Positions 17,410-44,440 of a stretch of DNA of 64,000 nucleotides are shown one piece after another; position 1 is the first letter of the stretch, and each line of letters starts with the position of its first letter. Below the pieces are notes generated by a model, which worked only from the letters and a program-made list of their open reading frames with translations, was not told where the DNA came from and made no database searches. The stretch spans positions 96,596,001 through 96,660,000 of the forward strand of contig OZ024743.1 of the NCBI GenBank assembly GCA_964016885.1. Reading direction: 5' to 3'. Both the position numbers and the translations under genes were made by a program. The DNA is from Eledone cirrhosa. Taxonomy: Eukaryota.

Positions 17410-17610
17410 ACAAAGGAACTGTGATAAGAACCAGATGGACCATAACGCACCAGAGTACTCAATACTTAGGGTAGTAGAGTGGGAAATAGGAAAAAGTATG
17501 ACCCCGACGGAGAAGCTCAAGCCGTTTCGACGGCTATTTCTGGACTCAGTCCAGAAATAGCCGTCGAAACGTCTTGAGCTCTACCGTCGGGGTGATACTT
17601 TTTCCTATAT
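17410..17610. mobile_element. Penelope/retrozyme-like remnant with a ~60-bp-arm hairpin, carrying the 3' half of a hammerhead
   Basis: 17487-17547 and 17549-17608 are inverted copies. The family motif GAAA-CGGC-loop-GCCG-TC-GGGGTC is cleanest at 34160-34188 and 18530-18558. Flanked by (TA)n. Confidence 0.6.
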
Positions 17611-18132
17611 ATATATATATATATATATATATATATATAGAAGGTGAGTAATATTGTAGAACAATAAAACTATGCATATATCAGATAAGTAGCACTCAAC
17701 AGTTGGTAGAACTGGAGTATATATAATTTAATTTTATTTTATTTTATTTTATTTTATTTTATTTTATTTTATTTTATTAATACATTTTTACAGTTCTTAA
17801 TCCAATTTTTAGTATTTAAACCCAATATAAAATAATATACCCAGTTTCTATATTTTAGAACTCCAATATTTGAATACCATCTATAATATTCGCACATACA
17901 CCTCATCAATTTACTTTTTAACGTTATTTACAGCTAGTTTCAATTTGACAGTGTTCCTGACTCTCTCTCTCTTTCTTCCTTCTTTCCTCTTTTCTCTTTC
18001 TTTTTCCTTTTTCTCCTTCTTCTTTCCTTTTCTTCTATTTTCCTATCTTTTTCTTACTCTTATATTTCTGTCATATGTAGACTTTGCACTTTCCTGTTGA
18101 CAAGTGTTTTTAGGCTTCATATCATGTTACCT

Positions 18133-18199
18133 TATTTTATCTGATGAGAACACAATTTTTGTCCCAGGATAATGTTGTTTTCGAAATGCGCATAAAATA
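18133..18199 (+). ncRNA. Degenerate type I hammerhead ribozyme
   Basis: TATTTTAT-CTGATGA-(stem II)-GAAA-TGCG-C-ATAAAATA. Stem I is an 8-bp match but the U of the UH cleavage site is missing. Confidence 0.55.
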
Positions 18200-18961
18200 T
18201 ATAGAACATTTTTAACCATCTTTTAATTTCTTCTTTTATATATGATATATATATAGATATATATATAGATATATAATATATATATAGATATATAAATATA
18301 GATATATAAATATATATATAGATATATATATATATATAGATATATATATATATATAGATATATAATATATATATAGATATATAATATATATATAGATATA
18401 TAATATATATATAGATATATAATATATATATAGATATATAATATATATATAGATATATAATATATATATATAAATATATATATATATATATAAATATATA
18501 AATATATATATATATATAGGAACAAGTATGACCCCGACGGCAGAGCTCAAGCCGTTTCGACGGTCTATCTGGTTCCTTACCACATTTCACTCATTATATA
18601 TATATATATATAAATATATATATATATAAATATAAATATAATAAATATATTTCTATTCCGTTTACCAATATATTAATATATATATATATATTTATATATA
18701 TATATATATCTACTAGATTTGTTTTGAAATACAAGATTTGTTTTGAAAAATACGCTAGAATTATCAAATAGAAAAGCAACAAGGATTGGATTCTGGGATA
18801 AATGATACAGATTGATGAATGGACTAGGGAATTAAAATGGAGAGAAGAGTGAAGAAATAGCAATTAGTATGTTTTATTTCACCGTGCGTGCAGCCTAGCC
18901 TGAAATAGGGTTGGCGGTTTCTGAGTTTCGTATTTATATATATATATATTTATATATATAT

Positions 18962-19216
18962 AAAAGGGACACAGAGGAGACTGAGGTTAGCTGGACATGC
19001 TCACCGACATCCAGAGTTGACATTGCACTCAGTGCTCCTTTGGGAGCCCCTACATGGACACACTAGAAGAGGAAGACCAAGGTTAACGTATGTTGATGCC
19101 CTAAGGACAGACACTGGTCTGTTGGAGACGCAGGACATGGCAGCAATAATGAGGGACAGAGACTGCTGGAGAGAACTCGTCCATGGATCTCGGGAATTTT
19201 ACCCACCTTAGATAGA
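18962..19216 (+). mobile_element. 3' fragment of a second RTE-like LINE family
   Basis: Encodes RRLRLAGHAHRH...RRGRPRLTYVDAL...DRDCWRELV and has a (TAGA)n tail. Confidence 0.8.
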
Positions 19217-42968: not shown

Positions 42969-43065
42969 ATGGAAAGTATCTTGGACCGTATGCAAGATGA
43001 AAATACTGGAGTACCTGTGAAAACTGTAAAAAGTTTCATGTCGAAAGTCCCCAGTGTTTTTACAG
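42969..43065 (+). CDS. RGS7: Internal coding exon of an R7-family regulator of G-protein signalling (RGS7/RGS6/EGL-10-like), start of the DEP domain
   Basis: ttttacag|ATG...ACAG|gtatgt, 97 nt, phase 0/1. Translates to [32 protein letters not shown](G), against recalled vertebrate RGS7 MEDVIARMQDEKNGIPIRTVKSFLSKIPSVFSG. The symbol is family-level only. Confidence 0.92.
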
Positions 43066-43157
43066 GTATGTAACAATATTTTGTTTCTTTTTTTTCGTTA
43101 TTCAGCTACAATGAGTCATTTGTTGGTAAGACAGTGCAAAATAAATTGTGTCAATGA

Positions 43158-43480
43158 GGCACTCTGTCGATTACGGCAAGTGGTTCAGTTGATCCAATCA
43201 ACAGGATAGCCTGCTCATGAAATTAATGTGCAAGTGGCTGAGTATTCCACAGACACACATACCATTTACGTAGTTCTCAGGGAGATTCAGTGTGACATAG
43301 TGTGTAACAAGGCTGGTCCTTTGCACTACACATACAATTCATTTTTGCCGGCTGAGTGAACTGGAGCAATGTGAAATAAAGTGTCTTGCTCAAGGACACA
43401 ATGTGTCACCGGTAATCGAACTTGTGACCTTACGATTGTGAGCTAAATACCCTAACCACAAAACCACATGCCTTCACCCT
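43158..43480 (-). mobile_element. tRNA/CORE-like SINE with an alternative tail
   Basis: Head and core match 32880-33000 (CAAGACACTTTATTTCACATTGCTCCAGT). The tail matches 7685-7850. Confidence 0.8.
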
Positions 43481-44240
43481 GTGTTAATAAAGTGAAGTAA
43501 CTACAGCTGAGAAGTGACACTAATCTTATATATTCAACTTTCTATTCCATATTAATTATGTTTATTATTAGAGAAAAGCAGAGGAATCTAGAGAACTGTA
43601 AATGTCTACCACAAGTGATGCCTCAGGACCATGGTAAAAATATCATGGCTTGACCAGATCATGAATGAATAGGTCTTGGAAAGGTTCGGGCTGAGCAATC
43701 TATGGGATACCATTACCGTAAGATGGTAGTTGTTCAGCCATGTACTATAAATGTTCACAAACAAATCAGTTAGAACCTCTCTTGAGTTAATACCAGACAG
43801 ATATTTCAAAGGACCAGGTAGGCATTGCTCTGGCGGGCATGAGCCTGGTAGAATATGGACAATTTCAGGTAATCATGAACTTGGTAGGCATGGGCTTGAC
43901 AGGATATAGGTCTGGCAGAATATGGGCTTATAATGGCTCACAATCATGATGTATAGCAATCGCACGATATTCAATGATCCATAGAGAACTAGAAAAGCTA
44001 ACTGTTAGCAGTTATACTTTAGGGTTTCTTGTACTATATCCCAGCTAGCATTTTGTAATTCCTTTTCCAGTGCCTTCCTTTAACAGTCTTTCATGCCACA
44101 GGTGCATTTTATTCAGGCAGCTTTGGGATAAATCATCTGAGTATTTTCTGATTGAGTGGAATTTGTACGAACTTCTAAGTAACAATGGGTTGATTCATCA
44201 ATTGATTCATGATATGTGTGTGTATATAGAGCTATTAATT

Positions 44241-44440
44241 ATGTGATAAACAACACAAGACAATTATTCCATTTACCAGAGGTTTCAAGAAGACAGACAA
44301 GCTCAACACAGACGTCTGAAATTGCTCATCAGAATGAACATTTCATTCTGGTGAGCGATTTCAGACGTCTCTGTTGAGCTTGTCTGTCTTCATGAAACCT
44401 TTGGTAAATGGAATAATTGTCTTATGTTGTTTATTACATA
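44241..44440. repeat. Fold-back (~98-bp arms, 3-nt loop) with a degenerate hammerhead-like motif
   Basis: 44241-44338 vs 44342-44440. Minus strand reads TTCATT-CTGATGA...GAAA-CCTCTGG-TA-AATGGAA, with weak stem II. Confidence 0.85.

What the first reader, a model, noticed from the sequence alone, without database searches (positions are those of the whole stretch)
17410..44440. Dense collection of unrelated hammerhead ribozymes, nearly all at (TA)n tracts and often as fold-backs
Seen: at least seven hammerhead sequence types in 27 kb. They are the TATTTTAT type (18133, 24072, 24286, 34391), minimal CTGAAGA (23452), CAATTG type (33434/33930), CCGATCGG type (35628/36111), CAGATC type (39057), CGGC/GCCG halves (17500, 18530, 34160), CCTCTGG type (44267), and possibly a decayed CTGCAG type (25300-25380). 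Known: type I hammerheads with short palindromic stem III mark Penelope pseudo-LTRs and retrozymes. Inference: a TA-microsatellite-targeting PLE/retrozyme ecosystem that leaves hairpin scars and may help explain the (TA)n abundance.
Basis: partly seen in the sequence, partly recalled or inferred. Interest (0 to 1): 0.7.

Follow-up and report, generated by a model that had tools for sequence, protein, structure and literature searches.

The report
Penelope retroelement ends carrying hammerhead ribozymes
The hammerhead-shaped RNA motifs here are the ends of several Penelope-like jumping genes and one tandem "retrozyme", which sit at TA repeats and often form hairpins; the whole genome likely holds about 200,000 such motifs, and one family has left tens of thousands of half-hammerheads, likely because its transcription starts inside the ribozyme.

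Summary
The hammerheads are real. A strict type I scan finds 5 in the 27 kb (shuffles 0.01-0.05). Genomic copies show that seven of the eight listed types are hammerhead families; the 25300 palindrome stays unproven.
They are not unrelated and not a local cluster. A random 1.2 Mb sample has 72 per Mb (about 2x10^5 genome-wide); the 64 kb window has 78 per Mb.
Four types lie at the 3' ends of Hydra-clade Penelope-like elements (PLEs), one at the end of a Neptune PLE, and one is a 483-bp tandem retrozyme. Two have no ORF link yet.
(TA)n follows the 3' end in 53 of 68 insertions. Inverted copies lie 5' (19 of 60, against 4 of 60 on the 3' side). These are published PLE traits.
New here: the scale; a fixed U4C family; and a U3-A8-core family whose copies start at one site inside loop II, 31 nt after a TATA-like box. 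It has 46,619 half-hammerhead matches against 2,579 whole ones. 5' ends do not pile up at cleavage sites (2 of 132).
That PLEs explain the (TA)n abundance is not shown. No cleavage or RNA data were available.

The parts
17409..17608 (.). Fold-back of two 3' half-hammerheads of the U3-A8 (CGGC/GCCG) family. Long arm on - (17546 to 17409), short arm on + (17548-17608). Both start at the family's +1 site; TA tracts on both sides.
17640..18236 (+). TGCGCA-family PLE 3' end with an inverted tail (17640-17724). Hammerhead box 1 at 18141; 3-nt deletion at stem III/I in this copy.
   Evidence: a related hammerhead lies 1,220 nt after a Hydra-type ORF in L224
18516..18588 (-). U3-A8 half-hammerhead (short arm) joined to a tail fragment
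23366..23883 (-). 3' end of a Neptune-clade PLE. Minimal hammerhead, box 1 at 23483, predicted cleavage after 23456, 2-bp stem I.
23876..24475 (.). TATATA-family fold-back with hammerheads at 24129(-) and 24293(+). A 62-bp extra segment lies in both arms.
25290..25395 (.). Old palindrome with hammerhead-like remnants; single copy; not confirmed as a hammerhead
33011..33085 (+). Tail-only fragment of the Neptune family
   Evidence: 87% identical to 23366-23441
33228..34013 (.). CAATTG-family fold-back of a Hydra PLE 3' end. U4C core (CCGAAGA) at 33934(+), decayed arm at 33434-33482(-); one long and one short end.
34100..34202 (+). U3-A8 half-hammerhead with a short fold-back
34290..38600 (-). 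5'-truncated Hydra-clade PLE. RT C-terminal half plus GIY-YIG ORF (38590-37337), then a 3' UTR of about 1.5 kb ending in the hammerhead at 34445 and its tail; interrupted by the retrozyme.
35557..36725 (-). 483-bp tandem retrozyme, 2.2 units plus an inverted 5' segment (36606-36725). Hammerheads at 35706 and 36189. No long ORF; 38% GC.
35452..35498 (.). Target duplication, first copy (second copy 36780-36826), flanking the retrozyme inside the PLE 3' UTR
36780..36826 (.). Target duplication, second copy
38656..38775 (-). Tail and short hairpin of a related U3-A8 subfamily
38893..39353 (-). CAGATC-family element. Hammerhead at 39135 with G5A in this copy and a long stem III. No ORF link found.
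44240..44440 (.). CCTCTGG/CCTTTGG-family fold-back; both hammerheads decayed. No ORF link found.

Best explanation
These motifs are type I hammerhead folds at the 3' ends (pseudo-LTRs) of several Penelope-like retrotransposon families, mostly Hydra clade, plus one tandem retrozyme, and they were likely inserted at (TA)n tracts by the PLE protein. Shown: the ORF links; 3' ends fixed at two sites per family and followed by (TA)n; inverted copies on the 5' side; one long and one short end per fold-back; family-specific 5' boundaries. Inferred mechanism: the GIY-YIG nuclease with its CxCX5C linker nicks (TA)n on both strands. Reverse transcription starts at two internal RNA sites, one per strand. 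The two cDNAs are joined head to head, which gives the hairpin. Many cDNAs run off at the capped 5' end of an RNA started in the pseudo-LTR, so short copies share one 5' boundary. In the U3-A8 family that start lies inside loop II, so most copies are half-hammerheads. Hammerhead-cleaved RNA is likely not the usual template. Self-cleavage, probably as dimers for the palindromic stem III types, is predicted and untested.
For: ORF links: Hydra-type ORFs end 1.2-1.5 kb before TATATA, TGCGCA and CCGA-core hammerheads (L261, L224, L213). L052 and L053 carry the L213-type ORF end (85-92% identical) upstream of the CAATTG hammerhead; L049 and L054 carry it too. 5 uncut U3-A8 copies follow a Hydra-type ORF, among 29 junction readings. 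Neptune RT/EN lies upstream of the 23483 type; the EN was seen in 5 of 6 fetched loci. The window PLE's 3' UTR is collinear across the retrozyme. TA 3' of 53 of 68 insertions; fold centre 5' 19 of 60 against 3' 4 of 60. Long plus short ends in 38 of 44 classifiable fold-backs, 21.6 expected, none long-long. U3-A8 5' ends: 26 of 46 at -50 to -33 from the cleavage site, 2 of 46 whole. Halves 46,619 against whole 2,579. TATA-like box at -29 to -33 of the 5' pile-up in 3 of 6 families, chance 0.9% per site. A single G.C centre in 19 of 19 one-base fold-back centres where the template has T. Literature: PMC8557442, PMC11167929, PMC3846280.
Against: No RNA or cleavage data exist for this genome. No compensatory change inside the U3-A8 alignment (0 pairs). 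The TATA match is missing in U3-A8 subfamily 2 and in three other families, and the test was set after seeing the sites. The G-centre loci were picked with a query holding that centre; in unselected loci only 2 of 4 TA-junction copies show the extra G, and fold-back Gs are ambiguous. CAGATC, CCTCTGG and the retrozyme have no demonstrated PLE partner. Predicted minimum-energy folds of single copies give the full hammerhead shape for only some sites. PAc starts reverse transcription at a site not homologous to the target (PMC11167929), whereas many ends here fall at TA-like bases.
Confidence: 0.82

Rival explanations
1. The short and half-hammerhead copies come from a few non-autonomous master elements (SINE- or MITE-like) that were already truncated or folded back and were amplified as units. 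The fixed 5' end is then inherited, not a transcription start.
For: The 25 best loci share the same 197-bp layout at 93-95% identity. Halves outnumber whole copies 18 to 1.
Against: Three subfamilies start at the same homologous base. Fold-back centres vary (18 close pairs with gaps of 9-42 nt among the first 100 matches), and the centre G sits before either arm. TATA-like boxes lie at the right distance in unrelated families.
Confidence: 0.2
2. Hammerhead cleavage makes the template: self-cleaved (or circular) RNA is what gets reverse transcribed for all types, as proposed for retrozymes.
For: The 483-bp family is tandem with variable 5' ends, as expected of a circular or multimeric template. 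The model is proposed in PMC4209133 and PMC7229834.
Against: In the non-tandem families only 2 of 132 copies have a 5' end within 5 nt of the cleavage site, and 3' ends lie 20-200 nt beyond it. Uncleaved RNA was the main substrate for PAc in vitro (PMC11167929). The model may still hold for the retrozyme alone.
Confidence: 0.15
3. The 5' boundary in the U3-A8 family is a reverse transcriptase stall or snap-back at the loop II hairpin, not a capped RNA end.
For: The boundary lies in the 3' strand of a predicted 6-7 bp hairpin in loop II.
Against: The hairpin is weak and AU-rich. The loop and 5' strand are usually absent from fold-back centres. Other families pile up outside such hairpins, after TATA-like boxes.
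Confidence: 0.12
4. The motifs are chance matches in AT-rich, palindromic DNA.
For: Several stems are AU-only and the cores are short; the 25300 site may be of this kind.
Against: 86 hits against 2 in shuffles. Of 18 recurrent CTGANGA contexts chosen without asking for pairing, 10 form stems I and III in 41 of 46 members. Double changes occur between homologous families.
Confidence: 0.02

Closest known systems
Hydra-clade Penelope-like elements, including Hydra-1_Obim of Octopus bimaculoides (Craig et al. 2021, PMC8557442, section 11 and File S1/S2 rows)
   Same: C-terminal GIY-YIG, RW[KR], DKT, CxCX5C linker, no CCHH, canonical hammerhead near the 3' end, (TA)n targets, inverted 5' copies, optional tail.
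   Different: The paper found a small number of families, generally under 3 kb, with 30-40 bp tails described for PLEs in general. Here there are many families, Hydra-type ORF hits in 16 of 120 random 10-kb blocks, 3' UTRs of 0.5-1.5 kb, and 60-170 nt between short and long ends. The Hydra-1_oBim hammerhead row differs in sequence from every type in this window.
Neptune-clade PLEs with minimal hammerheads (PMC4209133, PMC8557442)
   Same: CX4CxxC linker, CxxC inside GIY-YIG, DKG, an extra base after A9, and a two-base palindromic stem III.
   Different: Only a 2-bp stem I (as described for D. virilis Penelope) and a long C-rich 3' UTR.
Non-LTR retrozymes of coral, mussel and axolotl (PMC7229834; bioRxiv 10.64898/2026.07.22.740005)
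   Same: Tandem non-coding unit with one type I hammerhead, low GC, long target duplication, co-occurrence with PLEs.
   Different: The 483-bp unit is a little longer than the 150-450 bp quoted. It shows PLE-type long/short ends, 5' inversion and TA targeting directly. Circular RNA is untested.
U3-A8 minimal hammerheads of Schistosoma Cercyon PLEs (PMC4209133) and the U4C viroid variant (PMC3088659)
   Same: The same core changes.
   Different: Here U3-A8 has a long stem II and a stable stem III and is mostly present as 3' halves. U4C is fixed across a PLE family.
Pseudo-LTR promoters of Adineta Pen2a (TATA plus Inr, PMC3846280) and D. virilis Penelope (TATA-less internal promoter, PMC2377424)
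   Same: The promoter lies in the terminal repeat near the hammerhead; solo pseudo-LTRs and palindromic junctions occur.
   Different: Here the start is read from piled genomic 5' ends, and in one family it falls inside the ribozyme.

Membership tests
Type I hammerhead ribozyme | Core CUGANGA...GAAA...UH with stems I, II and III | tested here: met
   Seven types in family copies. Variants U4C and U3-A8; the Neptune type has a 2-bp stem I. Several window copies are decayed.
Type I hammerhead ribozyme | Compensatory base changes in stems | tested here: inconclusive
   Between homologous families: yes. The 483 family and L199 (78% identical) differ by double changes in stems I, II and III; CAATTG/CAGCTG and TATATA/TGCGCA likewise. 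These hits were found by a scan that asks for pairing. Within the U3-A8 family: none.
Type I hammerhead ribozyme | Self-cleavage at NUH | not testable with these tools
   Needs an in vitro assay.
Type I hammerhead ribozyme (25300 palindrome) | Intact core or a family that has one | tested here: not met
   Single copy, no intact box.
Hydra-clade PLE | RT followed by C-terminal GIY-YIG in one ORF | tested here: met
   Window ORF and L213. Pfam gave no match; the assignment rests on motifs.
Hydra-clade PLE | CxCX5C linker, no CCHH, CxxC and CxH near the C terminus | tested here: met
   against the description
Hydra-clade PLE | RWK and DKT motifs | tested here: met
   RWR and DKT in L213. The window copy is truncated before them.
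Hydra-clade PLE | RT tree placement with named Hydra elements | not tested
   No reference sequences were in hand.
Hydra-clade PLE | (TA)n insertion and 3' hammerhead | tested here: met
Neptune-clade PLE | CX2-5CxxC linker plus CCHH, DKG | tested here: met
   L299-L304
Non-LTR retrozyme | Tandem non-coding repeat with a type I hammerhead in each unit, no LTR | tested here: met
   483-bp units, up to 3 whole units plus a partial one, longest stop-free stretch 85 codons
Non-LTR retrozyme | Expressed as circular RNA | not testable with these tools
   No RNA run was listed.

The most novel reading that the evidence does not exclude
A Hydra-clade PLE has put its Pol II start inside loop II of its own U3-A8 hammerhead. 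Its capped RNA then begins with half a ribozyme that cannot cut in cis, and only the read-through 3' copy is whole. The roughly 45,000 half-hammerheads are cap run-off cDNAs. With the long/short-end rule, this genome records two-strand, two-start PLE integration from uncleaved RNA, at one of the highest hammerhead loads reported (about 2x10^5 in 3 Gb, against about 120,000 reported for the far larger axolotl genome).
Probability: 0.5. Interest if true: 0.72.

Novelty: new variant of a known kind. Interest (0 to 1): 0.5.

Why it matters
What the hammerhead does in PLE transposition is an open question (PMC8557442, PMC11167929). This genome holds hundreds of thousands of insertions whose ends can be counted. 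They argue that cleaved RNA is not the usual template and that hairpin insertions come from two cDNAs started at two sites. One family appears to split its ribozyme at the transcription start, which gives a direct test with CAGE and a half-against-whole cleavage assay. Four literature searches found no genome-wide hammerhead survey of a cephalopod. The basic system of PLE, hammerhead, TA target and inversion is known.

Tried and rejected
Rfam scans of the window and of L230/L276 listed no ribozyme family; the hits were hairpin and microsatellite noise.
I first read the CGGC/GCCG element as a non-hammerhead TA-targeted element, then as a possible unknown ribozyme or a twister/HDV/hairpin type (from recall). 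Both readings were dropped once uncut copies showed a U3-A8 core.
One search was spoiled by microsatellites in the references and its output was cut; it was redone with masking.
One search returned only TA noise.
The 25300 palindrome had no other copy.
G3-C8 and A3-U8 core scans gave 1 and 0 hits.
The 5' pile-up test for the TATATA family used too short a motif and is not used.
No PLE ORF was tied to the CAGATC, CCTCTGG or 483 families in 1.5-kb flanks or six 10-kb stretches.
Earlier-findings look-ups returned nothing.
Supplements not seen: Cervera 2014, Cervera 2020, Bonar 2026 and the 2026 bioRxiv preprint. Mollusc hammerhead counts there could lower the novelty of the scale.
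Full report
Setting. The window is G000:C4:96596001-96660000 of a 3.0-Gb assembly. An RGS7-like exon lies at 42969-43067, so the region is probably intronic; the upstream exon was not located. The host looks like an octopod from genome size and repeat types. That is an inference from recall and was not tested.

Are the motifs real? A strict type I scan finds 5 sites in 17410-44440 against 0.01-0.05 in shuffles. Own-genome DNA searches gave first-look candidates (not copy numbers) of 2,082 for the 483-bp type, 3,993 CGGC, 1,803 CAATTG, 972 TATATA, 2,326 CAGATC, 1,323 CCTCTGG, 1,695 TGCGCA and 2,267 for the 23483 type; the 25300 palindrome gave 1. 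The copies show that 18141, 33434, 39135 and both 44240-44440 arms are decayed members of families with intact cores. The CAATTG family has C at core position 4 in 18 of 19 readings, some from the same locus; U4C lowers activity in vitro (PMC3088659, passages). In a test that did not ask for pairing, 10 of 18 recurrent CTGANGA contexts formed stems I and III, in 41 of 46 members. The 483 family and its 78%-identical relative in L199 differ by double changes in all three stems.

Is the density special? No. 120 random 10-kb blocks from 23 large contigs hold 86 strict hits, against 2 in shuffles: 72 per Mb, bootstrap 52-94, about 155,000-282,000 genome-wide. The 64-kb window has 5. Resampling gives P = 0.12 for at least 5 in 30 kb. 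The axolotl figure is about 120,000 (PMC7229834, passages).

What are they part of? The ORF at 38590-37337(-) is the RT C-terminal half and GIY-YIG domain of a PLE. It has CxCX5C, CxxC and CxH and lacks CCHH; its relative in L213 also has RWR and DKT. These are the stated marks of the Hydra clade, which carries canonical hammerheads and inserts in (TA)n (PMC8557442, section 11 and passages). Its supplement lists Hydra-1_Obim from Octopus with a (TA)n preference. Hydra-type ORF hits occur in 16 of 120 random blocks. The window element's 3' UTR runs on to the hammerhead at 34445. It is interrupted by the 483-bp retrozyme, which is flanked by a 47-bp direct repeat. Hydra-type ORFs also end 1.2-1.5 kb before TATATA, TGCGCA and CCGA-core hammerheads. 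The 23483 minimal hammerhead ends a Neptune-type element. The 483-bp family is tandem, 97-99% identical among top copies, and non-coding; it fits non-LTR retrozymes, which are argued to derive from PLE pseudo-LTRs (bioRxiv 10.64898/2026.07.22.740005, parts 1-3 of 5 read). No ORF was tied to CAGATC or CCTCTGG.

TA and fold-backs. After collapsing the 86 hits into 68 insertions, (TA)5 lies within 200 nt 3' of the cleavage site in 53 and 5' in 18; random points give 15.7%. Fold-back centres lie 5' in 19 of 60 and 3' in 4 of 60; random points give 4%, and a SINE-like control 17 and 16 of 156 with no direction. Each family has two 3' ends. Of 55 fold-backs examined, 44 could be classed: 38 long-short, 6 short-short, none long-long. 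PAc protein extends both target strands and starts at two internal RNA sites that define the tail (PMC11167929, passages). I infer that each hairpin joins two cDNAs, one per start site. Inverted copies with a tail at one end are described for PLEs (PMC8557442; PMC3846280, passages).

The half-hammerheads. The CGGC/GCCG element has no CUGANGA in its top 25 loci. Longer copies continue upstream into a Hydra-type ORF and show the whole fold: stem I of 5 bp, box UUGANAA, a long stem II, GAAA, stem III CGGC/GCCG and GUC. Position 7 varies over all four bases while U4, A6, A8 and A9 are invariant in 24 of 24; U3 is kept in 19 of 24. 96.8% of cells pair, with no double changes. A second, different U3-A8 family was found in 3 blocks. 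U3-A8 is known from Schistosoma PLEs (PMC4209133, parts 1-2 of 4 read). In the random sample 26 of 46 copies start 33-50 nt before the cleavage site, inside loop II, and 2 of 46 hold the whole ribozyme. Exact patterns give 46,619 halves and 2,579 whole junctions; the two patterns differ, so the ratio is approximate.

Why one 5' boundary? Other families have one too: GATTC 12 of 20 at -44 to -38, GAAC 5 of 8 at -73. A TATA-like box starts 29-33 nt before the boundary in three of six families examined; chance is 0.9% per site, and the test was post hoc. The U3-A8 boundary reads like an Inr (recalled motif). Fold-backs with a one-base centre have G.C in 19 of 19, while the template has T at -1 in 17 of 18. 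This fits copying of a cap, but those loci were query-selected, and unselected evidence is thin (2 of 4 TA junctions). Pseudo-LTR promoters are described (PMC3846280; PMC2377424, passages; the latter is TATA-less). In contrast, only 2 of 132 copies of canonical-core families start within 5 nt of the cleavage site, so cleaved RNA is likely not the usual template.

Dimers. Palindromic stem III words do not fold alone but pair as duplexes (-3 to -17 kcal/mol; -1.7 for the two-base Neptune type). CAGATC and U3-A8 stems fold as monomers at about -6 to -7. This is a prediction only.

Do PLEs make the (TA)n? Not shown. TA tracts are 4.6% of the sample and 3.5% of this region. 250 of 1,360 TA clusters touch hammerhead-family sequence, with a library that includes flanks and misses families. 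RTE-type tails are also near TA (27 of 54). The PLE 3' UTR carries its own TA/TG-rich stretch that is long in some copies, so a contribution is possible.

Verdict. A real and well-supported set of PLE and retrozyme ends of known kinds, at genome-average density. The new points are the scale, the end statistics, the U4C family and the split U3-A8 family. Searches for prior reports found no cephalopod hammerhead survey. The O. vulgaris repeat paper reports Penelope-like families and, in parts 1-2 of 3 read, does not mention ribozymes (PMC13282606).

Noticed in passing
window 42969-43067 (+): Exon of an RGS7-like gene (E 7e-10 to RGS7 residues 27-59); the finding probably lies in its introns.
   Followed up: partly
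window 33105-33160; similar ends near 18640-18670 and in L015, L323 flanks: A perfect 40-bp palindrome from another short TA-flanked family; 8 short hits in the random sample. Likely another PLE tail.
   Followed up: partly
window 23933-23995 and 24413-24475: A 62-bp segment present in both arms of the TATATA fold-back but not in other top copies or the random sample, so a nested piece was duplicated with the hairpin. Unexplained.
   Followed up: partly
L230:3200-3360: An inverted TATATA-family tail joined directly to a U3-A8 half, which suggests the two arms of a fold-back can come from different families.
   Followed up: no
window 19231-22626 (-), and 16493-16846: Near full-length RTE-type LINE (756-codon frame) with CAT tails; short RTE tails sit beside many TA tracts (24490, 32710, 38821).
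   Followed up: partly
window 44500-48800 (+): Decayed Gypsy-type LTR retroelement right after the 44240 fold-back; read from the sequence only.
   Followed up: no
window about 50700-54000 (-): Another LINE-like RT region; family not determined.
   Followed up: no
L203:3441, L242:2342, L257:3406: A second U3-A8 hammerhead family with an 8-nt palindromic stem III.
   Followed up: partly
random sample: Three recurrent CTGANGA contexts (14, 5 and 5 copies) failed the stem test; one reads as a minimal hammerhead, two may be 5' halves. The strict density is therefore a lower bound.
   Followed up: no
L183:5000-9650; L263; L159: Further tandem hammerhead repeats (about 664, 522 and 556 bp spacing), likely other retrozyme families.
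   Followed up: no
L149-L150 (C17:7.69-7.71 Mb): A 5.4-kb segmental tandem that carries 483-bp retrozyme arrays; no PLE ORF inside.
   Followed up: partly
L014: A U3-A8 fold-back sits in the TA centre of another inverted repeat.
   Followed up: no
window 58316-60303: A 2-kb (TGT)n-rich degenerate tandem array.
   Followed up: no
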